Made by a program: the position numbers and the translations under genes
The notes under the pieces: generated by a model
What the model was told of the DNA's origin: nothing
What the model saw: only the letters and a program-made list of their open reading frames with translations
Databases searched by the model: none
Source of the DNA: Lingula anatina
Lineage: Eukaryota > Animalia > Brachiopoda
DNA length: 64,000 nt
Reading direction: 5' to 3'
NCBI GenBank assembly: GCA_051362555.1
Contig: CM120641.1
Coordinates: 620,001-684,000 of the forward strand
In this document: positions 37,482-64,000 of the stretch, piece after piece
Position numbering within the stretch: position 1 is the first letter of the stretch
How the letters are laid out: every line of letters begins with the position of its first letter

Positions 37482-37486
<5 letters not shown>

Positions 37487-37570
<84 letters not shown>
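37487..37570. repeat. Compound (CT)n(TA)n microsatellite
   Basis: Read directly from the sequence. Confidence 0.97.
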
Positions 37571-37571
<1 letters not shown>

Positions 37572-39918: not shown

Positions 39919-40001
39919 ACATATGCACGCATGCATGCGTGCGCGCGCATGCACACGCACACACACACACACACGCGCGCGTGCGCGCGCGCACACACAC
40001 A
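39919..40001. repeat. Alternating purine-pyrimidine tract (CA/CG/TG mix)
   Basis: Unbroken RY alternation for ~83 bp, including (GC)n runs. Confidence 0.9.
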
Positions 40002-40558
40002 GGGCACTTGCCCTATTATTCCTAGACAGTTACAACTACCAAAGAAAAAAAAAGTTGGCCTTTTGCATGTATCCTAAATGAACAAAGCAACATATGAACT
40101 TATAGATCAAAGAAACTTCACTGGAATACAATTGAGACATTTAGAAGATTTCAGTTAGGTTTACCAGCTAATTAGATCTTGCTGAGGGGGTCTGGCTTTT
40201 TTTTCCTTCTTCCTGTCTCTGGGAAAATCAGATAGATAATCATACAATGTACATTTATAGCTCATATCCTTTGCAATTTTATTGATTCTATTTTGTTCTC
40301 CCCCCTCACAGGAGACCCATCAGAATGGAACATGAACCTTTGGCAATTTGCAAGATGGATATTTCTCTAGCAGTTTTGCTGATCATGCTCCCAGTTTGTC
40401 CATTATATTTTCCCCTGAAATGCACACGCAATATTCATTGGAGTGATTCCTCATCACACTCCATTGGCACTTATATCAATTTCATGTTCCATTTCAATGG
40501 GCAGCAGAGACCAATCTCAGACCCACTGGAGGATGGGGGATAGGACGCCTCAGAAAAC

Positions 40559-40559
<1 letters not shown>

Positions 40560-40623
<64 letters not shown>
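40560..40623. repeat. (GA)n microsatellite
   Basis: Read directly from the sequence. Confidence 0.97.
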
Positions 40624-40628
<5 letters not shown>

Positions 40629-42220
40629 AAAGAAAAGCATAAGTTTTGGTATAGAGCTATATGGACAACAGTCTATAGGGTGTTGTTGACTTGTCACAAA
40701 CAAAAAGATAAATAAAGAAAGGGACACAATACAGAAGCAGCATATTTCTTTATTTCTTAAGATGGGTTTCTGTGTAGAAGTTTGTCAGTTCTTTTGTCTC
40801 AGAGGCAACATTGAAGGTACTGTAGATGATCAGAGATTTTTAGCATTGCAATTCATTATTGAAAAAAAAAGACTGAAGAAGAAATCAAGTTTTCCTAAAT
40901 TATTGTTTGCATGAAATTTGTTATTTTCTTAAACTGTTGTAATTGTTTGATACAATGGATGCTTCCAACAGTAGGTGTTTTAAAAGTGTTTCAAAAATGC
41001 AAAGCTTAGGTTTTGTTGCCACATTTTTTTCCCTTTCTTTATTCTGTGCCATCCAGTTCTTTTAGTCTATACTCATTTTCTGCTGCTAATGGTTAGATGA
41101 GAAGAAAGGACCCAATGCCATTTCACTGTGTAACCAAATAGCCATCCACAATAACAATAATTGATCTCTTTTCTTTCATCAAACCTGGGGAGGAAAAAAG
41201 GATGAACATAACTATTTAATTACACTTCTGCACTGCAATATCTGATGATATTTAAACCACTATGTGCAAGCCTAAACCTATTGTTATTTTAGATCATTAG
41301 ACTCTAATGACCAAATTTCAATATCCTGGCTGGAGAATTTATAGGATGATAATGAAATAAAAGTAATCTCCCTTCGAACAATTGCATATGATCAAGAGTT
41401 ATTATGGCCCAACGCCTCAATGGTTAACAAGGAAATTTGCCGCAGAATGGCTGGAATTAAAACCTTCAAAGCTTTTTATTGCCCGTTTTCTTTTCCATTT
41501 TTATGCCAGATTGCTGTAAGTTGTTCAGAGACATTAGCTAGCAGCAGTGGCTTTCGTGATAGTGCCTATCTTGGTTGGAGATCTGTAGCCAGGCTGAGAA
41601 AGCACATGCTTCGTACCTTAGCACAGAGAACGGCAAATCCTGTCTACTTAAGGGATGCAAATGGGTCATAATCTGCTATGGTCGTTTCATACTAACATAC
41701 TTGAAAAAGACAGTAAATCATTCTGAAGAAAATAAACGAGACAGTCTTACAAAAGCTGACACTGGCTTAACACTAGGGAAAGCCTGTAGGCACAGAAGAA
41801 GGGCTGGTCGTAGCATTAGTAGGGAAGGGAAGAAACACTGATGATCCAGTGACAGGCAGCTTTTCAGAGAGATTTATCCTATAATTACTGGTAGATTAAT
41901 TAAGTTCATTACAATTCTTGGAAAAGTTGCCCAATAAAAAGATAATTGTTTGGTAATTGTAACAATTGAGGGATTTGTATGAGATCAATAAAACACAATT
42001 TATGGAGGGATTTGAAAGCAATTGTTATTATGTCATTATATTAGCATGAAAAATGTGTTTTGCTGCTGTGTATTTGTTTGTTCATTAATCTGCTAAAACT
42101 GAGAACCACCTAATCACGATCTGTCCAAGGCCAACAAGCAAGTAGATAAAATCATGTTTTCAAAACATTCTTATTCGCATATTGTTTTTTCATAAATACC
42201 AGTGCCATTTATTTTTTTTT

Positions 42221-42401
42221 AATAAAGTAATAATGTCTCATTTCAGACTTTTCCAGTCTATCTAAATATTTGTCAATTATCTTTTATAACAACTTCATTT
42301 TTTATTTTTGCCCATAATTACCAACTCTGTTTGTTTTTTGAAAATAAAGTAATAATCTCTGATTTCAGACTATTTTTCCAGTGTCTGTCTAAATATTTGT
42401 C
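42221..42401. repeat. Imperfect direct duplication (~55 bp, spacing ~122 bp)
   Basis: aataaagtaataat..ct.atttcagact..ttttccagt..ct.tctaaatatttgtc at 42221 and 42343. Confidence 0.8.
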
Positions 42402-45400
42402 TGGTTCTGTAGTATAACCACTGTATCCCTGGGCTTTGCAGGCTAACAGCAGGTTTCTAATGGTGGGGAGATAATTTTAGAAATCCCTCAATTCCATCAT
42501 GTATACTTTAATTAGATTAGAAATAAATGGACCAATGAGACTGATGCACAGATTTCCTAGAGATCAGGTGAATGATAAAAAATACAGATTAGGGCTGATG
42601 TTAGGGATGCTGTCTGTACGTCTGTCTGACTAACTAGTTTTGATAATGTAGTTAAGGTGGTGTATGGCACTATTCTCTCTCTCTCTCTCTCCCTCCCCTC
42701 TCTTTCTCTCTCTCATGTGGGTATCTTTTCACTGTCTCAGTTGATTTACAAAGAAAAAATGTAAGGAGCACACTAACCATTAAAAGAATTATACTATTAA
42801 GATTTAACATGTCACAACAGTGCAAAAATTGTCAAAATCTTTCTGCACACTGTTTTAGCCGAGTCTGATCAATTTCACTGTATGGTGCACCCCAATAAGG
42901 CTGTAATTTCTTAACTGCCTTTCTTTAAAGTCTGCCCTGATGCTATTATAGAGATTGAGTTGCATCTGACCAAGGATTTTGTTCAGGTTAGGAAAAGAAA
43001 GCCCAAATCTTGCACCAAAGGTCAGGGGGGAAGGCAAGTAATGAGCTGTTTGCAGGGTTCTGGAGGGAGCTGTGTGATGGCGGACAGGACTCAATGGCGC
43101 CAGCGCGCTTGGCAGTGGGCTGGCCTTTTATTTTGCAGGAGGTGTGGAGAAAATAGTTGAGGGTCTCACCTTCCATTCTCTGTTCTCTTTGAAACAAACT
43201 GTTGCTGTTATGTGTGAAAATGAATGTTTACAAGGTTTAGGGTTCATCTCATTAGTAAGAATTGTTTTTATCACTGATTGTCAGTTTTGACTTCATTTGA
43301 AATGACTAATTTTGACAAAGAGAAATACTTGTATTTATTTTATAGTCTTTGGTGTCTTTCCTTGCTTATTATGGATTTTACAGAAAAACAGATGAGTAGG
43401 GACAAAGTTGTGCAGTTTTACAAGCTTTTTCATGATCATACAACAGAACATTTCAAAAATCATAAAAAATATGGCTACAATATTTTTAGATAGAATTATC
43501 TCCAAACTAGTCTTAAACTTTTTTCAACTCAAAAGAAATGTTCTATTTTAGGCATTTGTTTACAAAGTAAAGAAAAAAGTACTAGTTTCCCTTCTTTCTC
43601 TTTCCTCTGTCTCTCTCCAGCATGTCTGTAGCCTACGCGGCAAGCAGCAAGTCTGTCTCTGAAAACAAAATTCACACCGGTGTTGATGAAATACCTGCTG
43701 TTTAGAGGATTTTTTATAATTTTTGGAAGGAATTGAACATGCTTTGTGGTAATGACATCCTGCTGTGGTGGTGCCAGTACATGCAGTTTTTCATTATGCC
43801 CCTATTTATGCTCAATTTAGTTTGTGGAGGATTAGTTCCACTAAGAAAAACATTCACATAACATTAGACTTTGCACACCCAATGGTGCCTTTGCACTGAT
43901 GTTCTGAAATTAAATTTTGCTACAACTCTTGTCTTGCTTGAATTTCTGTCTAATACTAGGTAGACTTCTGCCTAACCTTCTTCTCTTGGCATGGTGACCA
44001 AGTGCTGCCCCCTATTATCAGGAAAAATCCCCTTCACATCATGCCAGCCACAAGATGTTGGCCCGGTTAGGACTGTCATGTATTCATTAATAAAACAAAT
44101 AAATTTCAAAATTCTGTACAGTCGGCTGCAAATGAGTAGCATGTGAAAGCGTCAGGTTTACCTTGTGTAGCTATATTGGTTTGATAAATCAAGGCTGCTA
44201 AGTACCGAGGCAAGCAGCTTGCTTAAATCTTGCCACTGCTCCATCCTGACAGGCTGAGTGCTAGCTACAAATCATTGTAGTCAGAAAATCACATTGCTTC
44301 AATCTATTCAACATTTATCTTGAGGGGGAAGTAGTGTGGACCACACAGTGAACTGGGGAAGGAACTGATTTAACTCCAACTTTGCTACACACTCTCCTCA
44401 TGAAGCCAGGGCAGGCCAGGCCCACACCTCAGCCAATTCAATTGATTATATACTGTTCCTCTCGGGCATACTCTGCATCAGGAGGCTACTGTCAATAACA
44501 ACAAAAAATATACAACTTGTATTTTCTTGGTTGCACAGCTGTGAGGCAATTGTATTCCCTCTTTAATTTGTTTCAATTGCTTGTGGCCAGTTTTAAGACT
44601 AGTTTTAAATACCTGATAATGTTGAAAGTTTTGGATTTTCTTTAATTTTTTTCCTATTGATTTTTTTTCATGTATACGCCAAACATTTATTAATGTGCAT
44701 AAAGTTTTTATATCAGCATTAATAAAAGGGGGTTTACGAAAAGCCTATTTAATATGACAGATAGAGCTTTATATTTTACCTACACATTCTTATTATTTAT
44801 AACTTGAATTAACTTGTATTTTAATTTTGGATACTGTCAAATAAAAAGATTTTTGTTAGTTTAAAAAAGCAAAGGTTTAAATAAATTTTCAGCTTTCATG
44901 AAAAAAAAAATGTTCTTAAAAATTATTGGATAGATTTTTTAAAAAACCACAAACTTTACATTCTGATTATTTACAAGTTACCCGATGATTTGTGAATGTA
45001 TTTTTCAAGTGCAGAGTTTGTAATTTTTTTCTCCCAACAAGATATACAAAGCAAAAGTGCAGGATAAAAAAAAAAGAAATGTCAAATGTCAGATGTTATG
45101 AATTCTTGGTCAGTGAAACGGTCAGATATAAATTGTGGTCACTTCATGCTCGGTCAGTGTCGTCCAAGTGAGGCCGGTTGCCCTGGACAACCGTGACATT
45201 GATTGATGGGTGCGGACAATATATTGTTTTATTGAATAGTTAGCCTGTTAACCTCTGCAAGCTCTGTATGCTGCTTAACAGCCTTATATTTTGAGTAATC
45301 AAATAATTTGTTTTTTCACAAAGCACACTATTAATTTTAACATGTTAGCAAGAAAGTAGAATTCTGGGTAATTATGTTTATGAGCTGCGATTGTGTGAAG

Positions 45401-46977
45401 TGCGAAGTAATTTAATGTGTTATGACACGCCTTATTGTAAAAAAAAATGTTCATACTTTGTGTACAAAAATGTTTGAAGTTAACACAATTTTCTTTAAAA
45501 ATACTAGTCTCTGTTCAATTTTAAACCTGGTGATCTTTTTGATCTAAAAAGGGGTGTGGCTAAATCCTGATATACTTGTCAAGAACAATCCCCAGCCCTT
45601 GGACATGTTTGTTGTTTTGTGTAATGGTGGTTTCATAATCTGAGCTTATTTACGTGCACCTGGACACATCTAGATCTATATATAGGCATGCATATCTGTG
45701 CAAAAATCATTATGATTCTCCTGCTGCGATAGATAACATGTATAGGCACAGGTGCACAGCTTGCCTGCTTGTATACATACTCATAGAGGTACAGTGACTA
45801 GAGACTATAAACTACATGAAGGCATGTTTACAAATACAGACACAAACACATTAATTTTTACGCCCACACCTGACGCCTTCTGATCTTTTCACTGATTGAT
45901 TTTTGTATCTGTTTAAGGAACTTTGTTGTGTGATGTACACACGCAGACGTCACCTTGACTGGAAACTGTTCTCTTTATCGCACAATTTCCAGGAACTAAT
46001 CAGGTTTTTTCTAACATAAAAGTGATCGCAAAATTCCATGCCGATTTACTTTAAAGATAAACTTTTTAATCACTGAAGATATTATTCTATAAGAGCAGAA
46101 ATAAGTGAAAGAATATGAGGGCATGTATATTCACATCCTTTCCATATTACATCAACAGATAGGTGCTATTACTGATGTATTCCTAGTTGGTTATTTTAAG
46201 TACACACACACATACATTTACACTCCCCTGGTGCGGCCGATCATTTTACTGATAGATTTCAGCATCAGTTATGAAGGGCCTTCCCGCGGTAACGAGGACG
46301 CATCTATATTGATCCTCCAAATTGTGCAAAATCACTAATGGTCCCTAATGATAGTCGTCAAGCTGCTACTAATGTAGCTGATCTATTCATACTGCAGATT
46401 GTTATGGAAATGCATCATTTGTTTTGCCCTTTAAGTAAGCAGGTTTAATGATTCTTACTCTTGCCTCCCTATCTTATCCATCATCATTACTACCCTCTTA
46501 CTACAGGCACTGCTGGGTGGAATATTTAGTTTTACATGCTCTCCACTGGTTTTTTCTGCTCAATTGAGCTTGCTGGGGAGTTATTTGTCACCTCCATAGA
46601 GGTGACAGCTTGACATTTATTATGAACTTAATGAATGTCAATTGCATTGTGTTGAATAAACTGTTGAAACAATACTGTTATTTTTTTTTTCTTAAAACCT
46701 TTTTAAAAGGGATTTTATATTTGCAGAGCATACAGTATACATGATTCGTATTCTATAAGATATTTTTTCATTTGTTATTTAAGCAATGAGACCAGGTGGA
46801 GACACTTAACTTTTTTTATTATGTTGAAATATATATCAACTAATTAATTTGTCTTGTCAAGCAGTAACAGTGGTAAGATAATAGACACTAGCAAGGTTTA
46901 TATAGTTGGTTAGTTATATCTTTATATTTTACTTATCAATCCTTTTTTAATAAAGCCTGACTTGGTTTTGTCTTCAG

Positions 46978-47036
46978 GTTTATCAACGCCAGGCGAAGGA
47001 TAGTGCAACCTATGATTGACCAATCAAATCGTGCAG
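46978..47036 (+). CDS. Meis: Meis homeodomain C-terminal exon (W-FINARRRIVQPMIDQSNRA-G), short form with GC donor
   Basis: Acceptor ttttgtcttcag ends at 46977. Exon ends CAG|GCAAGT, a perfect consensus donor apart from GC. Length 59 nt, phase 2 to 1. Confidence 0.93.
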
Positions 47037-47114
47037 GCAAGTCTCCTGTGGTTACGGTGTTCAAATCACGGAGGCGTAAATCCTCATCCAGTATATCCCC
47101 TGGTCCTTCACCAG
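47037..47114 (+). CDS. Meis: In-frame 78-nt alternative extension of the last homeodomain exon (GKSPVVTVFKSRRRKSSSSISPGPSP)
   Basis: Open frame between the GC donor (47037) and a CAG|GTAAAA donor (47115) of the same phase. The peptide resembles the GKSPIVTVFKSRKRK... extension I recall from vertebrate Meis1 isoforms. Confidence 0.75.
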
Positions 47115-47134
47115 GTAAAACTTGTTTGGGAATG

Positions 47135-47148
47135 GTTGCCATAGCAAC
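47135..47148. promoter_or_regulatory. RFX X-box motif GTTGCCATAGCAAC
   Basis: Full 14-bp match to the canonical X-box. Function is untested. Confidence 0.5.
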
Positions 47149-48600
47149 TTGGCCCCGTGAATGGTTGTCTGGCAACAAGAAGAATGTTATACCTGGTGAA
47201 GATCTGTCGTATCATTCCGGCCCACCTAGATGATGGAGACCATTATGGCCGCTCCTTCTGCCATGACAATGGCTGACACTTTCCAATATCTTTTTCTCGC
47301 ATGTGTGATCTAATCCCTATATCCTGGTCACTGTGTTATGAAGAAACTCAAATTTGGATGAAATGTGGAAAATTAAAATTGACTACCGAGATCTACATTT
47401 AAGGAAGTTTGCAAAATTTTCATGATTATCAACATTACATTGTAAAGTCATTTGACCTAATATTTTCAGAATTTGTTATCAAGGATAAGTGTTTTTCAAC
47501 CCTTTCTGAAAATTTTTGTAAAATATGTATCAGAGAATTAATAGTATTGCCTGGCAGCTGGCACAGTGAGTTTCTTGATGCAAAATGGGACTTTTTTTTT
47601 GGGGGGGGGGGGGGGTGAAAAAAAGAAAAAAGGATTTGAGAAAATTGACCGACAACCTTTTCCTTTCTCTGACTTGTGTTCCCCATCTGCATGCTTCCTT
47701 GCCTCCTGTGATTTGAACACCTGTATACCGTGAGTATGTTCTAAGGAATGACAGCTACAGCCATGCAGACATACATAGCACCCCCACACACATATCTCTC
47801 CTGGAGTGCACACTAGTGACACCTATAGTGTAGATCATCAGCTGCATCTTTATTGGAAAGCATGAGGAATAGTGGCACCTGATTTTGCAAGTTAGCACAG
47901 GCACATAAAGAAATAGACAGGATATTTGTTATTTTTCTGTCTTCTGAGTACTTATGTTGAGTGATATTTCTGCAAACTTAATCTCTTTTGCACTCTTTGC
48001 ACTCTGAATATGTTTTTGAAATGAAGTAAGGCAGAGAGAAGTGTTTACTTTTTGCAACCTGTGACTTCCTGAATTTTGAAACTTTTGTGCTGTCATGTTA
48101 CTTTCAAAAGTCTTTCAGTAAGACAAAAATAATAAAATAAACAGATGAATGATTATTTTAAAATTGACTATTTCAAGTTCTCATTTGTTTGTTAAATTTT
48201 GACGCAAGACCAAAAAAAAAAGTATGATCCATTTGTAACACTGTACAATGATAGACAGTATGATCATGTAAAAAAAAAATTGATGTAATTGTTGAAAATC
48301 AGAGCCTAATCAAAATTTGTGTATCTGCAAGGAGTTATCAGAGAAAGTCAAAATCAGACAATTCAAGTGTTGCTGTGTTTAAAAACATCAAAAGTTAATT
48401 TTATAAACTTGAAATCTGAAATTTAAAACAAGCTACTGAATATACCAATATACCTTCCTTTAAAAAGGATTTGTTAAAGAAAGAAATGCAATGCCTAGAA
48501 TTAGGACAGCTCAGTAGTAAATCTGGTCCCTCTGCTGTCTTCTCTCAGCATAGTTTATGCAAGTTGAACTTTTAGTTTGAGTTTCACTTTCACTTTCCAG

Positions 48601-48678
48601 GCCCCAGTGGTTATAGTCCAGATGGTGCTGGCATGGGATATCCCATGGAGAATCAGCAAATGCACATGAGACCACCAG
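48601..48678 (+). CDS. Meis: Meis post-homeodomain exon (G-PSGYSPDGAGMGYPMENQQMHMRPP-G)
   Basis: Acceptor tttcactttcactttccag ends at 48600 and donor G|gtaaga starts at 48679. Length 78 nt, phase 1 to 1. Similar to hth GPSGY..DAMGYMMD..HRPPG and Meis YSPDGQPMG...QHMGIRP. Confidence 0.93.
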
Positions 48679-51600
48679 GTAAGAATATTATTATTGTTAT
48701 TATTATTATCATCCAAGGAATTTCTGTATTTCAAAACGTATAACTTACTTACTCTCAAAATTCAGTCATAAATACAAAATTCATGAATATGAATTTTATA
48801 AAACTAACATAACTGAATTTTTCAAATCTTGTTGATTGTGAATTTTGTGAAGTTATCTGAAGCCTGAAATGTGTAGGATTTTAACATGAAATATAATTTT
48901 CTTCCAAAGAAAGCAATTTTAGCTACTTGCAAATTATTGCTAAATCCATCCCAACACTTAGCTTTCATGTTATGTATCATTTCTAGACAAACCACTTATA
49001 ATAAAAAATGAAGAAGTCAGATCATAATGACAGTGGAGAAATAATAATAAGTAAATATTAATAAAAATATTTTGGAAATCACTTTGAATTTCATATGTGC
49101 TTTGTAAGAAAAGTACCAACTTACTCGATCCGAAACCATTTTTTCTCAATTCAAAGATAATATGAATAACTAATCTAATGTAGATTGCTAGTCTCTAGTT
49201 TAGTAATTGTGTTGTACTTTTTAAACTCTGGTAAGATATCAAACATGGCCAACTCCCAGACATATACACACAGGTAATAACTAAAGAGGAAAAATCTGTA
49301 ACACAGCTTAATAGCAAATTAACCATGGCCAGAGCTATCATTTCCAATGAAAGTCCAACTAATGCCTAAGAGAGAAAGCATGTTCACTTTGCTGGCTGCA
49401 CATTGGTACCATACTTCATGGCTTTCTATATATTAAAGATTCATTAAGACATCGTATGACAGAGAAAAACTTTGTAATGTGTAGTTTAATACTTTGTTAA
49501 TAAGGTTGTGAGTTTTGTACATTTTCTGTATTTGATATTGATTACAAAGAGACCTCTGACATTAGGTTATTAAAATTATTTCACATATGTGGATATTTTG
49601 TATACTATAGGTCATGTTCATCAAACAGGGCTCAGGAATGTATTCGTCATAAACAGTGAATAGAATATTTGATAAAATCTTGAATATTTGTGAGGGAAGC
49701 TCAAACAATTAGAAACAATGAGGATTTAAGTTAAAGATTACACTTCAGTATTGTTTGATTTCATAATTCTGTCAAAGACTTTCATTCCACAACATATTTA
49801 TTCCATAGCAAGCTGTTCAGACCTAAACCAGTCTGCCTCGCCTACTTACTGCTTATTCTAAAGAGTGATTATGTTTATCTGTTGTCATCCATTGCTTCAT
49901 CTACCCCTGTCACAAATGCAGCTTTTCAGAAATAATAGATCATAAATGATGGTATATGACACTGTAAAATAAATGGACAACGTGTGATATATGGTTGATA
50001 TGGCATCTGGGAAAACACGAAAAAGAACAAAAATTGTGTAACTGCAGAACGCTATGAGCCTGATTACAGGAAAAAAGAGATTCTGAGTTGCGTTTCAAAT
50101 AAACATATTGTATGAGTAATGACATGCAAATGTTAGATACATCACACTAGAATGTGTTTTGTCTCTAAAGGATGATCAGACAGCTTCAGTTCCAGCTTGA
50201 TGTTGTTACTGAAGGTGCAGATGTTCTGTTTTCTATATATTAGCCTAATTAATAAGACATGGAACTTTGGACTCTAGTTATCAATTAAGCCCATTCAGTA
50301 TGAAAACGCATTAGTTTTTTTCTCCTGTTTTAAACAGTATTCTTTTTTAAGTAGAGATATTACATAGATCGTTAAATATTTCATACATAGAAACAAAAGC
50401 TTGTTATCTGTATTGTCATATTAATTATTAAATTATTATTGATATGCTGTTTTTTTATACTGCTAATAAGATGCACATTTTCCTCATCAACAGGGGTTGT
50501 TCAGTTGTACCTTTTTGTTGCTATTAAAACATCTTTATTTTATGATGGTTTCTTAACAGAGCTGTGATATAATTGACTTTGCTATTTTTTTCAATTAGTA
50601 AAAATCTGTTGCACAATTCCATTTGTTGCTCTATACACAGAAGGCATAAATATGGCATGACTAAAATTTTTAACTTATTCTAAAAAAATATTATTCCAAG
50701 AATATACCTTAGTGTAAGTGAAATATCGGACCAAACTTTAAAAAAATTATTTTATGTCCACTAAGGAGGTCTTGCCCTTGTTGCTTAGTTGGTATATTAG
50801 TAAACAGCTTTAGTGTAGTTTAGGACAGATTTTGATAAAAGTCTTACCGGAAAGGTCAGTTACAGGCCCACTTAAAATCAGTTAGATTTAATATGATGAG
50901 AATTGAACTACCTTAGTGTGGGTTTTTGCAGACTGCGGGATTTTTTAAATACATCCCTTTGTATTTAGTGGGACTCTACAAAGTTCTTAAACTTCGTAAC
51001 CTCTCGGTTCAGTGGTGAAAGTAAAAAACAACCAACCCCTCTGATTCTAACGAAGTTTGACTGTGCCTCAGTGGGGAGGGCTGTTCTCACTGAAAGGTTA
51101 ACAAGATGTAGCATATGTTTCTATTCAACTTTATGTCAGATTACAGTGTATTTATCTGTGATGAACCTAAAGATGTGACTTATGCTGTCTTCTTCTTAAG
51201 ACCATCTCAGCCGGGGACGGCTGCAGTTTTGACAGGTTGGGTCCATTTCAGTGCTCCAGGGCCAAGAGTTAATTCCCTATCAAAATTGTCACGTCAGCAT
51301 GATTTGCAGGCAGGCGTGTACGGAGAGACATAAATTCAAATCATAATCATGAGTATCATTAGTTGCTTATGTGTTTGGTTATGTGTATTAGTTCACTGGA
51401 TCACGCTGGCTGGTTTAGACAGTGGGCAATCTGACAGGATTTATACCAGTTACACTGACTTACTTATAAATTATGACAATAATCAATAGGTGGCTATGTC
51501 CGATGGGTAGACCAATCCTGTCACATTTCAATCCGCCAGTTTGCTAGCTGAATTTGTTCTGCTGCAGGTGAAAAGAAACTTAACGCTGTGAAGAAAATTA

Positions 51601-53705
51601 TGGATTTTTGTTAATAATCCAGGACAGTTATGACAGTTGAGTAATCGGTAGACAGAAACAATAAAGATATTTTTTACAGGAGAATAATAAAACTCCAAAC
51701 AATGCCCCATACATCATCCTGACAGCTGTAGTAGCAGAGGGGGGAGTCCCCTAGGCAAAAACATGGGGGAAAGATGAGCTCTATCATGCACTGAATTGCT
51801 TGCAAATGGAAGAGGTCATGAGAAAAAATACACAAATAAGAAGTGAAGTGTCTCTTTCTTCCATTCTGTTTTTTTTTTTTTTTTTCTAAAAAGAAGAGCA
51901 ATTTTCTTCACTAATAACATATGTTCAGAAATGGTTTGCAAAATGTGGGGACTTGTTTGAAGAAGATAGACATTAAAAAAAATATAAGAAAACTGCCTTT
52001 GAAAAAATTGTTTTAAAAACACGAGGTTCAAGTAATTAGATACTAACAAATTTTCAGTGCAGATAAGAATTATAATGTGAATAGTGTAGCAGTGCATTTA
52101 TTTATTAACAATTTGTTTTGTACAAAAAAGATATTTTAGGTAAAACTTTAAACACCCAGCATCAGTGTAGGTGGCCCTTGAGTTCTAACAATACATCAGA
52201 AATGGATACAGTGTAACCAGGAGACTTAAGTTACAAATTTCTCATAATACGACAGAGAGAAGAGAGCAGTAATTTGTCATCCCACCTGACCACCTAGAGA
52301 TAGAAATAATAACAACAATATTCACACCTGCGATGATCTGCCTTTATCTCTTTATCATCTATCAGACACTGCTAATCTCGTTAAGTGATGTTACTGTTCT
52401 TATTTATAGCTTTGACACTGAACACACAGACCTTGAGTTAATTGCTGTAATAGGTGACTTTGGCCCTCCAGTTAGGATCCCATCCATCACGTTTGTCATT
52501 CACGTGGACAGTCATCAGTCGGAAAATGTCACCTTCTTGGCATCAGACTGTTGCTTGAATGCTGTTAGGGTACTGGTGGTCTCTGGGGGAAAGAGAAAAC
52601 AAAAACGTCTCTAAATGAAATTATTATCACCTGCAGGGAGAAGGTTACAGTCTGCTATTAAAAACTCTTTGGTCTTGGTGATAAAGCAATCTAGCAGAGA
52701 TGTTGCATTCTTTGAGGGTTTTGTTCTCACATAAAAAAGAAAGAGCAACATTGGGAACATTACGAATCTTGTGTTCACTGTGATTGAACATTAACTTTCA
52801 AGAAAAAATTATTTTGTTTTTAGATTAATGCTTGATTTTGTGTGAACAATTCTTCAAAATACCTTTTGTTTATTTATTTTGTTTCTTCATAAATTAAAAA
52901 AAAACTAGTATATCATAGAAGGAAAACTTTTGCTATATTCTTACTGTTTGACAAAGACATTTTTGTTTGTCTGGTACAATTTACTCCCCCAAAAATATAT
53001 ATCAACTTTAAAAAAGAAGAGTGTACCAATAATTATTTCTTGTTTAGATTTTTTTCAAATGTATTTTTCTTTTAATATATTTCTTTAACTTATGACTTAA
53101 AAAGTTCAAAGAATGGGTTCTCTTTGTGACAGTTAAAGATAATGACAGGAACCAGGCAGATTTCTCCTCTGTTATTTCCTGTCTATTTTAAGTTTAATAA
53201 CGGTACACGTAATTGTTGAGGTCATTTTCCTGAGATCAGATACAGTGAATGCACATCCTGACAGATATAACTACCTTTGTGGAGATCAGCTGACTTTTGT
53301 TCCAACTTCCTTTCACCTGAGATCTTAATCTGAAATAAAGACCTGACGTCTCCTTGGTTGCCCATTAAGATAGGCTTTCCCCATAATTACTGGAGTCCGC
53401 CAGTTAAAATGATATAGACTTATACATAGGTTAACTGCTCAAGTTAATTAGTATGATAAGAGAGGAGGAGTTGGGGTGTGATTTGGATAGATGATACCCA
53501 CATGGGATATGTGTCATTTGGTTATAAAATTTATTTTATTAAACAAGTTCATAAAATTGTGATCACTTACTTACTGAAGCTCTTCATCTAATTTGTGATT
53601 TAATTATTCCTCTTATTGGGTAGCTTAAAAAGATAATATTTAAAAAGATGTACATTTTTATGTACAGACACAGATGTGTCTGTACATATTGCCATCACCT
53701 GCGTC

Positions 53706-53771
53706 TGTCGTCGCCGTCGCCGATCATGTCGCCGTCCCTGTCGCCGTCGATGTCGCCGTCGCCGTCGCCGT
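53706..53771. repeat. (GTCGCC)n-type microsatellite within the Helentron-like element
   Basis: gtcgtcgccgtcgccgatcatgtcgccgtccctgtcgccgtcgatgtcgccgtcgccgtcgccgt. Confidence 0.9.
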
Positions 53772-53850
53772 GCACTTTCATCGTTAACACGATAAGTGGA
53801 AGACAGTTTTACTTTTTGGCTTTATATTTACAGAGCTGATGAATATTCAT

Positions 53851-54234
53851 AAAACGCAGGTCAAGTTCGAAAATCAGCATGTTTGGGCAATTATTGTAGT
53901 ATTTATGCTGTGTTTTCACTTTTTAGCATATATGCAACACTGTTAACACATTTCAAGGAAAACCGATAGGCCTGTTGTCATGAAACTCACAGGAGTAATT
54001 AATCTTACTAAAACGCAGATCAAGTTCGAAAATCGGCATGATCGGGCCACTATTTTAGTAGTTATGCTGTTTTTTTCACTTTTCAGCATATGTGCAACAC
54101 TGTTAACACATTTCAAGGAAAACCGATAGACCTGTTGTCATGAAACTCACAGGAGTAATTAATCTTACTAAAATGCAGGTCAAGTTCGAAAATCAGCATA
54201 ATCGGGCCATTATTTTATAAGTTATGCTGTTTTT
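53851..54234. repeat. ~160-bp tandem repeat, ~2.4 highly similar copies
   Basis: Unit start aaaa(c/t)gcag(g/a)tcaagttcgaaaatc at 53851, 54010 and 54170. The block tgcaacactgttaacacatttcaaggaaaaccgatag is identical in two copies. Confidence 0.95.
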
Positions 54235-54639
54235 AAACATTTCCTCAGATTCAATTCTTAGGCATGTTAACAGTCTCATCATTTAACTAATAAGATTCGT
54301 AAAAGTGTTTGTTTGACATTTCCTGCATCTTTACAACATTGTTAGTTGATTATGTAAAAATGATGGTAAACTTGTTATCATGTATTGTATAATAGAGTTT
54401 CAAAAATGGAAATAAACTCATATCATTGCAGTTTGTCAGATTCATTCATTCACTATGTTCAGAAACTCAGAATGGAGGAAATTGGACATTAAACACTGTT
54501 CTATTGATATTTTTCCCATCTCATCAATTTTCTTAGTTGATCATATATAAATGGCAGTAAATTGTTAATTTTGTTATATGTTAAAAAATTGTTAAAAATG
54601 GAAAAAAACACATTTCAGGACAGTGCTGTCTTGTCTACA

Positions 54640-55840
54640 TTTTGGCATTTTCAAGGTGTGACTTTGAAGTTCCTTTGGCCTGAAGACCTTTGCTAGGAAC
54701 ATTTTCTGAATATCCATGATACTAATATTTTATTATTAAAAATTGATGGTAATTATCCTGTTAAACATTATGTAATAGTGCATCAAAATTTGAAGACACC
54801 CCAAAATTTGAAAATACCCCTATTTTGGACACTGCTCCCATGATGACCATTTAAGGAAAACCATGTCACTTACTGTTCTCAAACTTACAGGAAGAAACAT
54901 GGGACTTAAATAAAGCTTCAGTGGGCAATGCAGACTATTTGGTAAATTTTTCTGGCAGTTAATCAGTTTTTTGTGAAAATTTAATTTTTCACATATTGGC
55001 ATTTTCAAGGTGTGACTTAGAACCTCCACGAGCTTGAAGACCCATGCTAATCACATTTTCTAAAAATCCACGATACGGATCTTTTATTATTAAAAACTGA
55101 TGGTCATTATGCTGTTAAGCATTATGTAATATTGCATTAAAATAGAAGAAAACACAATTTTGGGTGCTGCTGCCATGATGACCATTATGGGAAAACCATG
55201 TTACTTATGATTGTCAAACTTTCAAAAAAGAAACAAAAGACTAAAATGCAGCCTGAGTTGGAAAAGCAGTCTAATTGGCTTCTTTTTCTGGAAGTTATAC
55301 ATTTTAGTGAAATATTCATTATTATCGTGTTGGCATATTCATTGTGGGACTCGGAGCTCCCATGAACATGAAGCTGAATGGTAATCAAATTTTCTACATG
55401 TCCATGCTATTTATAGTCAATAATCAAAAATTGGTGATAATTATTCTGTAATTTATTATGTAATGTTACATCAAAATTGACAAAAATCTTTTTGCACTGC
55501 TACTACAAACATTATGAAAAGAAAACTATGTTACTTATTATTATTTTCAACTTACAAGTATGATTTGTAGGATTGGCATGCAGTTCAAATTAGAAAGCCA
55601 GCTCAAATGGGTTATCATTTATTATTGAATTTAAGCAGTTTTATGTGAAATTTTCATTTTTCTCATTCTGGCATTTTCAAAGTGTGAACTTAAACTCCCA
55701 TGGGCCTGAAGCCTTACGCTTGTTACACATTTCACTTACATTGGTATTACCTGTTGAGCATAATTAAAATTTGATGTTGAATTTGCAGTTAAGCATAATG
55801 TACTTTTGCATCAGAATTGACAGTAGCCTGTTTTGTGCAT
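54640..55840. repeat. Diverged ~335-355-bp tandem repeat, ~3.5 copies
   Basis: tggcattttcaaggtgtgact-like anchors at 54643, 54997, 55331 and 55669, with shared cattatgtaat..gcatcaaaatt and gaaaaccatgt.actta blocks. Confidence 0.8.
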
Positions 55841-56286
55841 TGTTATTGTCTGCTTTTTGTCTGTACATTTGACAGCTTTGCTGCCTTGTTTTGTTTATAA
55901 TGACTTAATTTTACAACTTACTGAAAAAATATGTAAATAGTAAATTGATAATTTACAAACTGTTTTATTTTGTATTATTTCATCAAAAGAAATTCAAGAC
56001 GTGGAATCTTGTGGTGTTTATATATTGATACTAATATCTTGTATTGAAGGAATTTCTGTTAAGAGTGTGACTAAAGCAATTTGTTATTGCAGACAGTATG
56101 TATACACATTTTTGGCAAATGTATTTTTCATAAAAAATTACATTTTCCTCAAGAAATAATTTGAATAAAAATTTTTTTGGGTAATAAAAGAGAGGCACAA
56201 CATTTGCTATTTTTTCTGTATGATTTTGATTATTATGCTTTAACTTTTGTGGAAAAACTTGACAACATATTTTTCAATCTTTCCAG

Positions 56287-56528
56287 GTCTCCAAGCTATG
56301 CCAGGGGATATGTATGGTATGCCCCCTGCCAGCAGTTCCTATAGCAACATGTCCCAATTGCGTCCTCCTGTCCACTCGCAAGCCATGCTCATTCCAGGCC
56401 ACCCGCATCACATGATGATGGGGCATGGCGGCCATCTTGGACCCCCATCGATGTTGGACCCCCAAAATCCACAACTTCATGGAGGTTTAGAGAGTATGGC
56501 ACATATACAAGATATCCATGCAGGATAA
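56287..56528 (+). CDS. Meis: Meis terminal coding exon (GLQAMPGDMYGMPP...QLRPPVHSQAMLIPGHPHHMMMGHGG...QDIHAG*)
   Basis: Acceptor tctttccag ends at 56286, phase 1, TAA at 56526-56528. Matches the long Meis C-terminus pattern GLQSMPG...QLR..PP.H...IPGHPHH...MDIHAQ. Confidence 0.95.
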
Positions 56529-59500
56529 GTTGTGAACCCCATATCAGCAATAAAAGAAAGTTTAAGTTAAAATGAAGATTGTGAGGAATCACTTGGACTG
56601 TTGAAGGAGACTGTTTTCAAGTTTTTTTTTTGCAAACAGGGCTCATTTTAATTTCATCCAAAGGGATTTATCCAGGAAGCATGGGGGTCATGCTGCATTG
56701 TTCTGTTAGTCCATTAGCAGGAGTGAGGGTGGACAAGAAGAGAGAGATATAGTGCTCAAATCATTTTCCCTAGTCAACAGTGAACCATATACAGACAATG
56801 AACAAAGTTTTGTAATTATTATTATTTTGATGAAGAAGGAGAAGAAAAGAAGACGAGGAAGAGGGAGATGAACTTTACAGAAAAAAATATATATACAAAA
56901 TACCTAATAGGGAGGAGACATTTATTTTTCTGATGCTGAATATTTGTAGATCACTTAAAAATATTAGATAAAAAGAAAAAACAAGCATTATTGACTCCAG
57001 CAGAACCATGTCATTTTATATAGGTGCAAGATTTTTTTTTACTTGTGTATACTAGTGTTGTGATAAGGTGCTGGAACTTACTTCCAATCACAAGGTCTTA
57101 ATTGCTCTTTGCTTGCAGCAATACTTTTAGATCCATTTATACGTATAAACAATAACTCTTTCTCATGAAGTAAAAAAAGAGGGGGGCCGACCTGACATGT
57201 TTAGTGGCATCATCTTATGCAATATGTTCACTGAAACTTTCCTATTTGAAGCTTTCCTGCCAACCTTTGAAGGAACTTGGGTGTCGCCACATTTTTACAC
57301 AATTTCAGACATGCTGCTGATGCCTTTAGATACCTTTTTGCTGCTTTAAACTAAAACAGAACGCATGTCAAAGTTTCCATAGAAACGATGAGCTGTAGGG
57401 GAGGCACCTGGCACCAGCTTGGTCATTCCTGTTAAAGTTTGTAACACTTCCACAAATGAAACAGTTGGCAAAACTATGTTGCTTACAGCAGAAAATCACA
57501 CATAGGCCTATGTGTATATACATAAATACAATTAATTCACAGAGGTTAAGCGGTAGTTAACAATTTATGCTCTGAGCTGTAGCTCACCAGACATTGCCTG
57601 AAGTTGCAGCCTGCTGCCACAAAATGTCAAGCACAGCATTGAACTTCAGCGGTAACAGATGATGCCAGGGCCAGGACTTATACAATGACAATATAAACTA
57701 ACACAATAATGATTAGAAAAGTAATAGGATTACAGTGATGATATATGTTTTTTTGTGCCTAGCATTAAATGCATATTTATTGTGTGGAACCTCCGGGCAT
57801 TTTTTGGCTCCATTCCTGTAAAGCAATTCTATGGCACAAGTAGTCATTCAGTGAGACTCTGTCAGTCTCCCAATGTCTCTAGTTTTTACATGTAAATAGA
57901 GAGGTACAAGTGTACATAAGTGACAATCTCATTCAGTATGAACGCAAGCACTGGAGAGGAGGAGGAAAACTTCGGTGACAGATCAGATCAGAGTATTACT
58001 CTTTTTCTCAGTGAGAAAGGAAAATGAGATCTCTCTGGCAGCCATCATAGGCCTGTGATGTTGTCTGTTTCAACCCACAGGGCCTTAAACCATGGTTGAG
58101 CCATTTTTTGTGGAAAAATATATAGAATGGCATGCAATAAAAATTAAAAGATGGTTTTATTCACATTCAAGACAATAATATGAGCGTACAAAAATCCGAT
58201 TACAGTTTGGAGTGATATTTCGGGAGGGGTCTTTCGAGATAGAGGGAAAAAAAATGCTTGTTTTTAAAAGATGTATTGCATTGGTTTTGAATTTATTTGT
58301 CTTTAATGTCCATTAATGCTGTCATTGATTTATTATTTCCATATAAGACTGTCACTGAATTATTATTTTTAAGTTTCTAACTAATTTTCTTCATGGCAAG
58401 ACTGTCCAAAACCCCTGTTGTCTGCGGGGAAATAAGAGCACCCTGGGTTTCAGAAACATGTTTCAGACTTACATCTTCAGCGGGGCATGTCTGTCTCACC
58501 CTTTAGAAATCTGAAACTCGGGGGCAGAGGGTTTGACTTTTGGTTGCTTTTTTCAGGTCACATGGGTGGTCACATGAGTGGTCACATGAGTGGTCATTTG
58601 AGTGGTCATTTGAGTGGTCACATACTAGTGGTCACATACTAGTGCACTTTTCCATTATTTTTTCTCTCACGTCTTGTTGTCCCATTCTTCATGTTAAATC
58701 AGCATTTTCAAAGGTGATGTCAGTTAAGATTTAATGGCAATTTACCTGCATTGTAATAAACATAAATTTTGTTTAATTCTAATTGTGCTGTTATTGTATA
58801 TGTTTCTAGTTTTTGGGGGGAATGGTTGTGAAACTGTCATCAACTTGTACAGTTTTAGTCTTAGATGCAGTATTATCGTAGAGTGGACAGGATTTGGCCA
58901 TTTTTTTAGAAGTTGCATCAGCTTCTATCTATGTACTCTTTTTTCCTTTATTTTTTCTTATTTCTCCTTTTATTTATTTTCTTTATTATAATTTTTTTGC
59001 CTTACAAAATGTTATTATATTTGGTTGAAAGGAAACAGTATTAGACGTAGTGTTTATCAGTTATAGGAAACTTGGCAGATAGTGAGGGCTACTGGCATAC
59101 ACGTGTATATTTATATACAGACGCTAGAAACCCAGATTAGACTATACAACGGCACACTTTGAGTTTAGAACTAAAATGAATAGAATGCATTATTTTTAAG
59201 CAATTTATTGAACCAAAGATTTCAACAGTCCTTGATCTGTTGAATAGAGGGGAGATGCTGATGTAGACTTAGATACCTGGTGAGGAAAGTATTTTTAAAA
59301 CAAGCTCTGTCTTTGTAGGGACATTCTCTAACTTCTCCCATTCTCTTTTGAAGTCGACATTTTTGTCAAACTTCGTTTGAGACACAGTGTTGACAAGGGT
59401 AAATGTAGCTGCGGATAGATAGGGGGGGATGCAGTTTTCTTTGAAGTTTGAATTTGACAAGCATTACTTTTCCCAGTCATGATTCGAATATGCCAAGAAA

Positions 59501-59860
59501 AAACAGAATTACATGAAGTTGCACAAAAATGTGTTTATTAGATGTCTGTCTGATGTTTTAGTTAAATGGGCAGTAGCTTGACTTTCATGTGCAGTACGAT
59601 AGATGCTGTTTATCTTTTCTTAAAATGACTGATATTATTATTATTTTTAGATAACACAAGAACTTTATTCTAGTCTGGAATTTGCTTCAATAACATGGTA
59701 AACAGGTACTAGGATTCGATAACATTTTGTTAAAAATCTATTGCTACTGATTTGAATTTGAAAGTCGGATGTCCCAAGGACTTAAAAATACAGAAATTGT
59801 TTCACCGACTAGTGCTAATGTTTTAGACAATAAAGGGTGAAAGTTGATTCTATGCCAAGT
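56529..59860 (+). other. Probable long Meis 3' UTR with alternative poly(A) signals
   Basis: AATAAA at 56549, 58136, 58755 and 59829. Pumilio elements and miRNA seed matches are present, and CpG depletion continues to ~59.9 kb. The true end is unknown. Confidence 0.5.
58556..58643. repeat. Minisatellite: five 12-bp units (GGTCACATGAGT variants) plus two 14-bp units (GGTCACATACTAGT)
   Basis: Read directly from the sequence. Confidence 0.95.
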
Positions 59861-60176
59861 TTTGATCAATCCGCTATTAAAACTGATAAAAATTAGAATA
59901 TTTTTATGTTTAGTCACATCCATGGTGCTTTAGACTTGCTTGTAAGATATGCGTATGTAATACTCGCTGGAGTCCTTGGTGTTAACTGTGTGCCGTTTCT
60001 TTAATAATTTGAGAGGGGTATTAAGGCAAACTTTTAAGAAATTACTATAATTTGTACACTATGTATTATATTTAATCTTTATCTATGCGCAGTGGTTATT
60101 CCTATGTTATTGTGTTAATAGCATTTTGATTGATAACTATGTTATGGTGGTTTCAGAAACATTGAAGCATTGGAAA

Positions 60177-60382
60177 GATATTCCATAGGATTCCAAGGGC
60201 GTTTTATTGTTGTTATTATTGTACACTGTTCCTATGGAAGTTTTTGTTGTTTTCAGGTGGTTAAAAAATCAACCAAAATTAATGATAAGTTCCCAACTTT
60301 ATTATTTCAAATGTTATGTCTGTCCTTACGTTTATAATATTATTCTTATATTGTAGTGTCCTGTGGGGTTCTATGGAATATC
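60177..60382. mobile_element. Small MITE-like element with 12-bp terminal inverted repeats
   Basis: GATATTCCATAG (60177-60188) and CTATGGAATATC (60371-60382), with an additional internal inverted copy TCCTATGGAA (60230-60239). Confidence 0.4.
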
Positions 60383-61248
60383 GTACCGTTTTGTAAGAAA
60401 GATCATATACCTCATCCAGCATTCTTTGAACATTGTATAGGAAAGCAGCATAGAAAGAAAATAAAACCATATCATAACGGTTTAGTCTGATGTTTGAAAA
60501 TAAATAATTATAAAACCGAAGTGTGGAGCTGATGGTATAGACTATTGTAGACAGACCCACGTAGATAAATGACCGAACTTTTGCTGCAATCTTTAAGAAC
60601 AGGTCTTTGAAATAAAAAGTCAAACCATTTTGCATCTTGTTGCCGCTTTTATTTCGTGATGATTTCCACTCTGACGCGCAGTTGAAAAATGACAATGGCG
60701 GTTAAATGTCAAAGACAAAGGCATTCCTCACGCTCTTTTGTCTTGAGATAGAAAACGGGACGGTGGGAAGAAAAGTGGCTTTCACCAAGAGAAAAGAAGC
60801 TCATACCTCTCATAAACACAGTTTGTGTATGGAAAGGGAACTATCTTTGTGGTCCTAACCAATTTTTTACCTTTAAAAACCTCGGTAGAATTAACATGTT
60901 GCACCAAGATGAGAACATAAAGACGTCATTTGCGACCTTAAAGATGAAATAATGCCCCAATTTTAATACCCATTTAAAGATTTTTCAAGTGTGAATCGAT
61001 TTTTAACCGTCCTTGCATCTTCTTCTAAGATGCGACAGTTCAATAGAAAACAAAAACGTGCGCCGAGTTTGAAAGTAAAATGCTGCTAGGCTTTTCTTTG
61101 ACAAATCCAACCGTAAAATGACTGTATGTTCATTAAAGGATTTTTCAAGTCTGGTTTGTGTTTTCTGTGTCGTTTTTCTTCGCCAAAAATGCGACAAAGG
61201 TATGAGTTAATCACGACGCGACAATTGATCGTACATTCATCTTCCATT

Positions 61249-61249
<1 letters not shown>

Positions 61250-61295
<46 letters not shown>
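61250..61295. repeat. (CT)n microsatellite
   Basis: Read directly from the sequence. Confidence 0.97.
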
Positions 61296-61297
<2 letters not shown>

Positions 61298-63128
61298 GTG
61301 ACGATGATAATCTAAAAAAATACAAAATGAACATGGAAAGTCTGATATTTTAATACTTAAAAGTGCTAGTGTTTCAGAAAAATGGCAATATTTTGAAAAA
61401 TCTTCAAAAGGAGACAAAAAGGCTGTCTTTGTTTTAAATGTTGTTAACAATTTTCTGAAGAAAGAAAATATTCTACATAATTTTTCTTTTACTTTTTGAT
61501 TAGGCTTGTCTGAATGTTTTTTCTTCGATAGTTTTTAAAATGTTCACATTGATTTGTCGCCATAACACTTCCATGAAATTTTTTTTCCAACGACCACGGT
61601 CTTTCAAAGATCTTGAAAAAATTAAACATTTCACGGGAGAATTGTGAACAGTAAATGTTAATTGAATATGTAGTCAAACGTCGATTTTTTTTCTTTGCTT
61701 CCACAAGTATAAACAGATAGTGCTATAAACACTATATAAGGCATTAGAGATAGGCCTACCAAATGGCGTTTTTTTTTATTCCAATTTTTTATTTTCATTT
61801 ATTTTTCTGTACTATTAAACAGCATGAATATTAAAATTACTTAATATATTTTATCACACATGTATTAAGGCATAAAGCAATCTATGTGAAAAATAAAGCA
61901 GGCCTACCTTCAAAGGGGAGACAATAACTTTTTATTTTTTGTTTTTTCACGTAAATGAATAACTTGTCATTTGAAAAGTTTTTAGCACGAATGTCGTAAT
62001 GTATAATTCAACATTGAATTATCACCTGGCGCTGTTTACTCCCAAAGGAAACTATTTCGTAACATCAGCGAAGATACATAGAAATCGTTTGTGAAGAAAG
62101 ACTCCAACATTAAACAGCGTGTTTTCAGCGATATTGAACACGCGCAAGATTTTTAAAATAAACTTTTCATGTAACTGGTTATAATTTCCCCAAATACGTA
62201 AATGCTCAACTGTTGTTACGTCTACTTAAAACCACACAGTGTATTATTTCCTATTAGTGATCTCGGGATATTAACGGCGTTGCATTATTTCCTTTATTAT
62301 ATGACCTTCTGTAATAAAAAATTCCGTATTGCCATGTAACGATCATAAACTGTCACAGCATACGTATATACCAGTATTAAAATACAGAGTGTCCGCCCTT
62401 TATAAGATACATACAGGGCAGGGTTAGCTGACGTAAGAGGGTGAAAATCTCGGACGTCCCCGAATCCTGTATCACAAGGGATTTTTTCGTTTGTGATCCC
62501 TTGTTTCTGTCTTTTCACATGGCTGGAACTTTTAAGAAAAGTCAAAATGTTGATTTCATGTGAAACACCACATTTTTGTCACGATGTAGGATAAATTTAA
62601 CAGGGGGTGAATGCTGGAACTCTTTTTCTTTATTTTTTCCCCTTTTTATGTTGTTTTATAACATTTTCAGTGCATCAGGATTTTATTTTGCGACCAATGA
62701 GGCCAATCAAATCATTTATCAGAATGAAATGAAGATGAAAATGATTAGACTTTTGTTTGAAATTTGGATTTCAAGATCAGAAGCAAAGTTGTTACGAAAC
62801 GACCCTCAAAAATTGAAAATAAGCGACATTTTATTTGACTACTAAAGGCTCGATTACGTACGTGACCTTCTCTAAGAGAGACAATCTTTTCATTTTTCCA
62901 AAACAAATGACACTAGCATCCTGAAAAACGCTTATTTCAGGAAATTATTCACGCTAAACGAGACTGCAATAAGGTTAAAAGGCCAGCGTTGCCAAGTCAT
63001 AATGATCTGTGTATTTAGCCAATTTTGTTCATTTCTTCGTTTATATTAGCATTTTTTGTGATAAAAAACACAATGATAACAATGCTCATGTCTCAACTAC
63101 CGCAATGAAACCAACCTGCTAGCCACGA

Positions 63129-63142
63129 GCTCCATCTGGCGG
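63129..63142 (-). promoter_or_regulatory. CTCF-like motif (minus strand CCGCCAGATGGAGC)
   Basis: Close to the CCASYAGRKGGCRS consensus, ~50 bp upstream of ATG 63191. Confidence 0.35.
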
Positions 63143-63190
63143 AGACGGAACGACTGAGCGGGAAAGGAGTAGAAACTTTGGACTGCAAAA

Positions 63191-63258
63191 ATGACATTTA
63201 TTCGCTGGGTCATTTTCTGCCTTTTGATATTCACAAAGAAAAGCAGAGAAACTTGGAG
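63191..63258 (+). CDS. CATSPERE: CATSPER-epsilon-like gene, coding exon 1 (signal peptide MTFIRWVIFCLLIFTKKSRETW-R)
   Basis: ATG in caaaaATG context. Hydrophobic core WVIFCLLIF. Donor GAG|gtaaca at 63259, phase 2. Confidence 0.75.
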
Positions 63259-63589
63259 GTAACAATTTAGTAAGAATTTGATTAGGATTTTTTAAAGTTA
63301 CGAGTATTCAAAATTGAGCGAGAAGATTCTGAAACCACCTGGCATCCTAGCGCATCAATATCTTTTTTTTCTTAGAATTTATCGGAAACTCACTGAATAC
63401 CAGTGTATTTAATAAGGACATGTGATACTCATACTGTTTTGTTGTAAAAGATGTGGCCAGAACAGGGATTAAAAATGCTAGTTCAGAAAATGATATCATT
63501 CAACCACACTTCATGAATTGAATTTCTCAAATTTAACACTGCCAGAATTTACTGATGATTTATGGTGATTTCTGTTTATGATATTTTAG

Positions 63590-63638
63590 ATATGGTAATG
63601 AAATTGGGCAATCAGAACTTTTCAACACAAGAAATCCA
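63590..63638 (+). CDS. CATSPERE: CATSPER-epsilon-like gene, coding exon 2 (R-YGNEIGQSELFNTRNP)
   Basis: Acceptor attttag ends at 63589 and donor gtaagt starts at 63639. Length 49 nt, phase 2 to 0, open frame. Confidence 0.8.
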
Positions 63639-63844
63639 GTAAGTAACACACTCTTGTTGATACTTTCTGTGAAAATCTAGACCTTTAAAGTGTACTCCAT
63701 CATTTTCTGCCAATGCTACATAATATAAACATTGTACTACTACAAGGCTGGTTCTGTAACATAAAAATTTGCATGATTGAAAACAAAAAAATCTGTAGCA
63801 GTAGTGATTGATTTTCAGTGAATCTTTTCTTTGTGATTTGTTAG

Positions 63845-63927
63845 ATCAAGCTAGAGTATTTGGTTGAACAAGATGGAGTAGAGATAGAATGGCACATAAA
63901 TGGAAATTGCGTTGTCTCTAACAAGAG
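63845..63927 (+). CDS. CATSPERE: CATSPER-epsilon-like gene, coding exon 3 (IKLEYLVEQDGVEIEWHINGNCVVSNK)
   Basis: Acceptor tttgttag ends at 63844 and donor AG|gtaaaa starts at 63928. Length 83 nt, phase 0 to 2. The joined peptide keeps WRY, F.TR..IKLEY, EW and C.V.NK as in mammalian CATSPERE (recalled sequence). The gene continues beyond the window. Confidence 0.8.
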
Positions 63928-64000
63928 GTAAAAATGATTTATTTGCATAAAAATAATAAATCTAGTTTTCTTCTTCACTGTCCATATTTCCTCTATATGG

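What the first reader, a model, noticed from the sequence alone, without database searches (positions are those of the whole stretch)
63191..63927. Hidden CATSPER-epsilon-like gene directly downstream of Meis in a probable protostome
Seen: three short exons with GT-AG sites and matching phases give MTFIRWVIFCLLIFTKKSRETWRYGNEIGQSELFNTRNPIKLEYLVEQDGVEIEWHINGNCVVSNK, none of it in the ORF track. Recalled knowledge: human CATSPERE begins signal peptide-LWRYSTNSPNYRIFSTRSTIKLEYEGTLFTEWSVPETCFVLNK, sharing WRY, F.TR..IKLEY, EW and C.V.NK in order. The CatSper sperm channel complex is patchily distributed and reported lost from most protostomes. Inference: if the host is a lophotrochozoan, as the hth-like and Meis peptides suggest, it retains a CatSper complex with auxiliary subunits, possibly unreported for its lineage.
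Basis: partly seen in the sequence, partly recalled or inferred. Interest (0 to 1): 0.8.

Follow-up and report, generated by a model that had tools for sequence, protein, structure and literature searches.

The report
Brachiopod CatSper-epsilon gene start
Three small exons just downstream of the Meis gene of the lamp shell Lingula likely begin the gene for CatSper-epsilon, a helper subunit of the sperm calcium channel, and this is ordinary because Lingula is already listed in print as having CatSper, epsilon included.

Summary
The three exons are there as described (63191-63258, 63590-63638, 63845-63927; GT-AG, phases 2/0/2, 66 open codons). Under my rules they form the only ATG-hydrophobic three-exon chain on either strand of the window. 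CpG falls from expected levels to 1 observed against 14.4 expected just after exon 1, as in a methylated gene body. The host is Lingula: the upstream Meis exons are identical to L. anatina Meis1. The CATSPERE identity was not confirmed by any tool. Single exons gave no Pfam or PDB hit, the spliced peptide was not searched, and the window ends in intron 3. The identity rests on a recalled human sequence (17 of 45 columns by eye) and on a strong prior. The novelty claim fails: Brachiopoda were reported to keep CatSper in 2019 (PMC6660944), and the source data of PMC12638846 list Lingula genes for CatSper1-3, beta, gamma, delta and epsilon. Verdict: a real gene start, likely CATSPERE (about 0.78), in a lineage already known to have it. 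Interest is low.

The parts
63191..63258 (+). Coding exon 1: ATG, hydrophobic core (residues 6-14) of a predicted signal peptide, ends in the WR codons, phase-2 GT donor
   Evidence: 7-residue Kyte-Doolittle mean peaks at 3.73; no signal-peptide predictor was run
63590..63638 (+). Coding exon 2 (49 nt), completes WRY and carries F.TR; AG acceptor, phase-0 donor gtaagt
63845..63927 (+). Coding exon 3 (83 nt), carries IKLEY, EW, C, NK; AG acceptor, phase-2 GT donor; the window ends 73 nt into intron 3
60501..63190 (+). CpG-retaining stretch between Meis and the candidate, the inferred promoter and 5' leader; its last 96 nt are 52% G+C
   Evidence: start of transcription not shown
63401..64000 (+). 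CpG-depleted stretch (1 observed, 14.4 expected), inferred methylated gene body
9520..56528 (+). Neighbour: 3' six coding exons of Meis (about 9520-9646, 22122-22270, 28079-28155, 46978-47036, 48601-48678, 56287-56528); fixes the host as Lingula
   Evidence: identical to XP_013382018.1 residues 220-462 within the exon limits
56529..60505 (+). Inferred Meis 3' UTR; AATAAA at 60460 and 60499 coincide with the end of CpG depletion
   Evidence: not shown by RNA

Best explanation
These three exons, 6.7 kb downstream of the Meis stop codon of Lingula, likely begin the gene for CATSPER-epsilon, a single-pass auxiliary subunit of the sperm calcium channel CatSper. Shown: the exon chain, its open frame, the host and the CpG step. 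Inferred: exon 1 encodes a signal peptide; exons 2-3 encode the start of the extracellular N-terminal domain; the rest (beta-propeller, Ig-like domain, stem, one membrane helix) lies beyond 64000. By analogy with mouse (PMC12851028), the protein would be made in male germ cells, join beta, gamma and delta in the canopy over the pore, pair with CATSPER2, and be needed to assemble the channel and deliver it to the flagellum. There, alkalinisation by sNHE and sAC would open the channel and Ca2+ would steer the beat of the spawned sperm. The position next to Meis is most likely plain neighbourhood.
For: Exon chain and frame; only such chain in the window; CpG step after exon 1; hydrophobic N-terminal core. 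Host is Lingula. The Lingula row of the PMC12638846 source data has CatSper1, 2, 3, theta, Efcab9, beta, delta (1 id), epsilon (3 ids) and gamma, so a CATSPERE gene is expected in this genome. Against the human stretch that the finding quotes from recall, I count by eye 17 identities in 45 columns with one 3-residue gap, right after the leader, with spacing kept between WRY, F.TR, IKLEY and between EW, C, NK. My own recall agrees and places this stretch in epsilon, not beta, gamma or delta; this is recall, from no call.
Against: No tool returned a CATSPERE hit: Pfam 0 families for the 3 exon frames (the 2 Meis exon frames also gave 0, so short pieces are a weak test); PDB phmmer 0 hits at E<=10 for exons 3, 2 and 1. 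Only 66 residues of an expected protein of about 1000 are in the window, so intactness is unknown. The leader's polar end (KKSRET) is not a textbook cleavage region. The OrthoDB epsilon column is inflated in Acropora (15 or more ids in 2 species), so its three Lingula ids are not each proof of an orthologue, and none could be tied to this locus. CatSper4 is blank for Lingula in that table.
Confidence: 0.78

Rival explanations
1. An epsilon-family duplicate (diverged paralogue, haplotype copy or decaying pseudogene) rather than the working canopy subunit.
For: Three Lingula ids stand in the epsilon column. The Lingula genome paper reports 1.6% heterozygosity and extensive gene-family expansion. 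Nothing beyond exon 3 is visible.
Against: All visible splice sites, phases and the frame are intact. Three ids are as easily split or duplicated gene models; two have near-adjacent numbers (inference).
Confidence: 0.12
2. A real gene for an unrelated secreted or single-pass protein whose start resembles the recalled CATSPERE stretch by chance or by faulty recall.
For: No database hit from single exons; the comparison sequence comes from memory only.
Against: 17 of 45 ordered identities at the matching place after the leader (by eye); epsilon is listed for this species.
Confidence: 0.07
3. Not a gene: chance splice-like signals in AT-rich intergenic DNA.
For: Shuffled strands give 0.4 such chains each; donors are slightly weak.
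Against: The CpG step falls right after exon 1; the real chain carries 4 of 5 motifs against at most 1 in 89 shuffled chains (motifs chosen after the fact).
Confidence: 0.03

Closest known systems
Mammalian CATSPERE (human C1orf101, mouse Gm7068; PMC5362262, PMC12851028)
   Same: Predicted leader followed by WRY, F.TR, IKLEY, EW, C, NK in the same order and nearly the same spacing (comparison sequence recalled, from no call). Epsilon is described as ancient, with lineage-specific losses.
   Different: Three extra residues between IKLEY and EW; polar, basic end of the leader; external fertiliser. The remaining domains, expression and function are unseen here.
Lingula anatina genes in the OrthoDB v11 Catspere group (7574_0:003708, 003b42, 003b4c; PMC12638846 source data, Fig. 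3 sheet)
   Same: Same species by Meis identity; same subunit.
   Different: Their sequences and places were not available, so which id, if any, is this locus is open.
CATSPERD (TMEM146)
   Same: Paralogue of epsilon, also listed for Lingula (1 id).
   Different: The papers place the delta-epsilon likeness in the C-terminal part; by recall delta lacks this N-terminal stretch. Not tested with sequences.

Membership tests
CATSPERE | Significant sequence or profile match to CATSPERE | tested here: inconclusive
   Single exon frames of 22-32 residues: 0 Pfam families, 0 PDB hits. By eye 17 of 45 against a recalled stretch.
CATSPERE | N-terminal signal peptide | tested here: inconclusive
   Hydrophobic core at residues 6-14, peak 3.73; cleavage region atypical; no predictor available.
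CATSPERE | Large ectodomain (N-terminal domain, beta-propeller, Ig-like, stem) and one C-terminal membrane helix | not testable with these tools
   The window ends in intron 3 and no whole genome is held.
CATSPERE | Intron positions shared with vertebrate CATSPERE | not testable with these tools
   No vertebrate gene structure could be fetched.
CATSPERE | Testis-specific expression | tested here: inconclusive
   Four RNA runs of unknown tissue laid without a positive control; no test.
CatSper complex in the host | Pore subunits and other canopy subunits in the same genome | not testable with these tools
   Genome not held. In print for L. anatina: CatSper1-3, beta, gamma, delta, epsilon, theta, Efcab9; Brachiopoda scored positive on a four-pore-subunit criterion; CatSper4 blank in the OrthoDB table.
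Host = Lingula (Brachiopoda) | Meis exons match a named species | tested here: met
   Best of 1589 hits is L. anatina Meis1. Variable exons are 100% identical (43/43, 27/27, 81/81), against 49-76% for the last exon in the 9 other Meis proteins tried. A very close congener is not excluded.

The most novel reading that the evidence does not exclude
Lingula keeps more than one real epsilon gene, and this Meis-linked copy is a diverged paralogue that builds a brachiopod-specific canopy or works outside sperm, for example in larval or lophophore cilia.
Probability: 0.1. Interest if true: 0.45.

Novelty: already known. Interest (0 to 1): 0.15.

Why it matters
As a distribution record it adds nothing: CatSper, with epsilon, is already listed for Lingula and for several other protostomes. 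The modest value is practical. Lingula spawns freely and can be induced to spawn, and it keeps the canopy subunits, whereas 15 of 15 molluscs in the part of the table I read have none. It is therefore a usable animal for asking what CatSper did in early spiralians. A clean gene model would also settle whether the three listed epsilon ids are one gene or several.

Tried and rejected
Genome-wide search for other CatSper subunits: no genome held. Pfam and PDB on single exons: nothing. Large protein searches with the exons could not be run: exon 3 is under the minimum length of two tools, the representatives search never left a full queue (10 tries) and the Atlas gave no result. RNA: no RNA holder listed; 4 of 9 offered RNA runs laid on 62701-64000 gave 0 reads with 6-25% of each run read, unknown tissue and no Meis control, which is no test either way. 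Two exact patterns from exons 3 and 2 found nothing in metagenome contigs. Rfam on 56500-64000: 0. Searches for a printed CATSPERE N-terminal sequence: full text for IKLEY returned only unrelated word matches in the 20 listed; supplements of PMC12851028 and PMC12638846 had none; the supplement of PMC12799140 was unreadable and may hold an alignment, as may figure images. A guessed PMC id fetched an unrelated paper. Earlier scan findings by place, by sequence and by a long word list: none. A deuterostome host was considered and rejected. A functional Meis-CATSPERE link was considered; there is no evidence for it and synteny could not be tested.

Full report
Observation. The region was read directly. 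The frames around them are only 29, 32 and 28 codons from stop to stop, so an ORF track cannot show them. Donors score 6, 7 and 6 of 9 against the consensus; five Meis donors score 7-8. Residues 6-14 form a hydrophobic core (peak 3.73), followed by a polar stretch that is not a textbook cleavage region.

Chance. One hundred shuffled strands gave 0.4 start codons with a chain per strand, 89 chains in all; 88 had none of five short motifs and one had one, against four for the real chain (the fifth pattern had a spacer one residue short). Rules and motifs were set knowing the candidate, so this is supportive only. An independent signal is CpG content: observed/expected is 0.33 over 1-56528, 0.35 over 56529-60500, 1.01 over 60501-63400 and 0.07 (1 vs 14.4) over 63401-64000. 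From general knowledge of invertebrate gene-body methylation, I read this as Meis ending near the AATAAA sites at 60460 and 60499, an unmethylated intergenic or promoter stretch, and a new gene body starting after exon 1. Methylation itself was not measured. Ten DNA runs of four studies hold 54001-64000 by sampled words, so the stretch is not a one-off assembly product.

Host. A Meis exon searched against the protein collection gave Lingula anatina Meis1 as the best of 1589 hits (XP_013382018.1). tblastn of that protein on the window gave identity within all six exons present, including the variable ones (43/43, 27/27, 81/81). Nine other Meis proteins (5 molluscs, 2 nemerteans, a leech, a sea star) reached 49-76% on the last exon. 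The host is L. anatina or a very close congener. The candidate's ATG lies 6.7 kb after the Meis stop, on the same strand.

Identity. No tool confirmed it. The exon frames alone gave no Pfam family (where the two Meis frames also gave none) and no PDB hit at E up to 10. The larger searches could not be run on such short pieces or did not run. No whole genome is held and the window ends 73 nt into intron 3. The spliced peptide was therefore never scored against a real CATSPERE. What remains is a by-eye count against the human stretch that the finding quotes from recall: 17 identities in 45 columns, one gap of three, directly after the leader. My own recall agrees with that stretch and assigns it to epsilon, but both are memories and not results. 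The prior is strong, because epsilon genes are listed for this species (below). RNA gave no test.

How it likely works. From PMC12851028 (outline, abstract, introduction and passages read): mouse CATSPER-epsilon is a single-pass subunit with N-terminal, beta-propeller and Ig-like ectodomains. It forms the canopy with beta, gamma and delta, pairs with CATSPER2, and its loss removes the whole channel from sperm. PMC5362262 (passages) describes epsilon as ancient with lineage-specific losses, and its likeness to delta as C-terminal. Applied here by inference: exon 1 is the leader, exons 2-3 begin the ectodomain, and the product would scaffold CatSper in Lingula sperm, opened by sNHE/sAC-driven alkalinisation as proposed in PMC6660944. 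None of these steps was shown for Lingula.

What is known. PMC6660944 (abstract, results section 11, passages, supplement search) names Brachiopoda among groups with CatSper, sNHE and sAC, scoring CatSper on four pore subunits, and names Mollusca as lacking CatSper. PMC13674862 (passages and part 1 of section 6) tabulates CatSper1 of Lingula, of the annelid Lamellibrachia and of the springtail Orchesella. PMC12638846 (passages; source-data file searched and part 9 of 16 read, file cut when stored) lists L. anatina ids for CatSper1 (2), 2, 3, theta, Efcab9 (2), beta (2), delta, epsilon (3) and gamma; CatSper4 is blank. The tool named the delta, epsilon and gamma columns for Lingula. By counting columns, Priapulus, Limulus, Pollicipes and Campodea also have epsilon entries, while 15 of 15 molluscs, 4 of 4 flatworms and the leech are blank. 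Against taking that table at face value: the epsilon column holds 15 or more ids in each of two Acropora species, so the group may include other proteins. A search for CatSper with Lingula found 4 papers; in the passages I read of two of them none treats a Lingula epsilon gene or its link to Meis, and the other two I saw as listings only. I did not search further for that link. PMC10523455 (passages) and PMC4595640 (passages) added context only.

Earlier scan notes. None for this genome. Eight of 29 notes with the word CatSper were shown, all from other genomes and unchecked by me; one reports an epsilon gene in Rozella, two a zeta-like gene in a probable arthropod. They fit a wide, patchy distribution and are not used as support.

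Verdict. Novelty: already known. Interest 0.15. The most novel reading left open, a separate diverged epsilon paralogue, has a probability of about 0.1.

Noticed in passing
window 46978-47114 (+): Meis exon 10 uses a GC donor (CAG|gcaagt after 47036), and a GT donor 78 nt further on adds a 26-residue basic, serine-rich extension. This matches the exon 10/10' arrangement described across bilaterians in PMC3140891 (passages), so Lingula keeps exon 10'. None of 81 fetched Meis proteins spanning the site showed it by my pattern.
   Followed up: partly
window 1-64000: CpG observed/expected gives a sharp gene map: about 0.33 across the Meis body and inferred 4-kb 3' UTR, 1.0 between genes, under 0.1 in the next gene. 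A developmental transcription-factor gene with such depletion is a little unexpected for an invertebrate (my recall).
   Followed up: partly
window 53850-54234 and 53709-53771: A 160-bp tandem repeat (2.4 copies, 91% match) and a CGTCGC-type array in the last Meis intron.
   Followed up: no
window 58556-58644: A 12-bp tandem array (GGTCACATGAGT, 6.7 copies) in the inferred Meis 3' UTR.
   Followed up: no
PMC12638846 source data, Lingula row: CatSper4 is blank for Lingula (and for Priapulus) while CatSper1 has two ids in Lingula; PMC6660944 required four pore subunits to score Brachiopoda positive. One CatSper1 id may be a misgrouped CatSper4 (inference).
   Followed up: no
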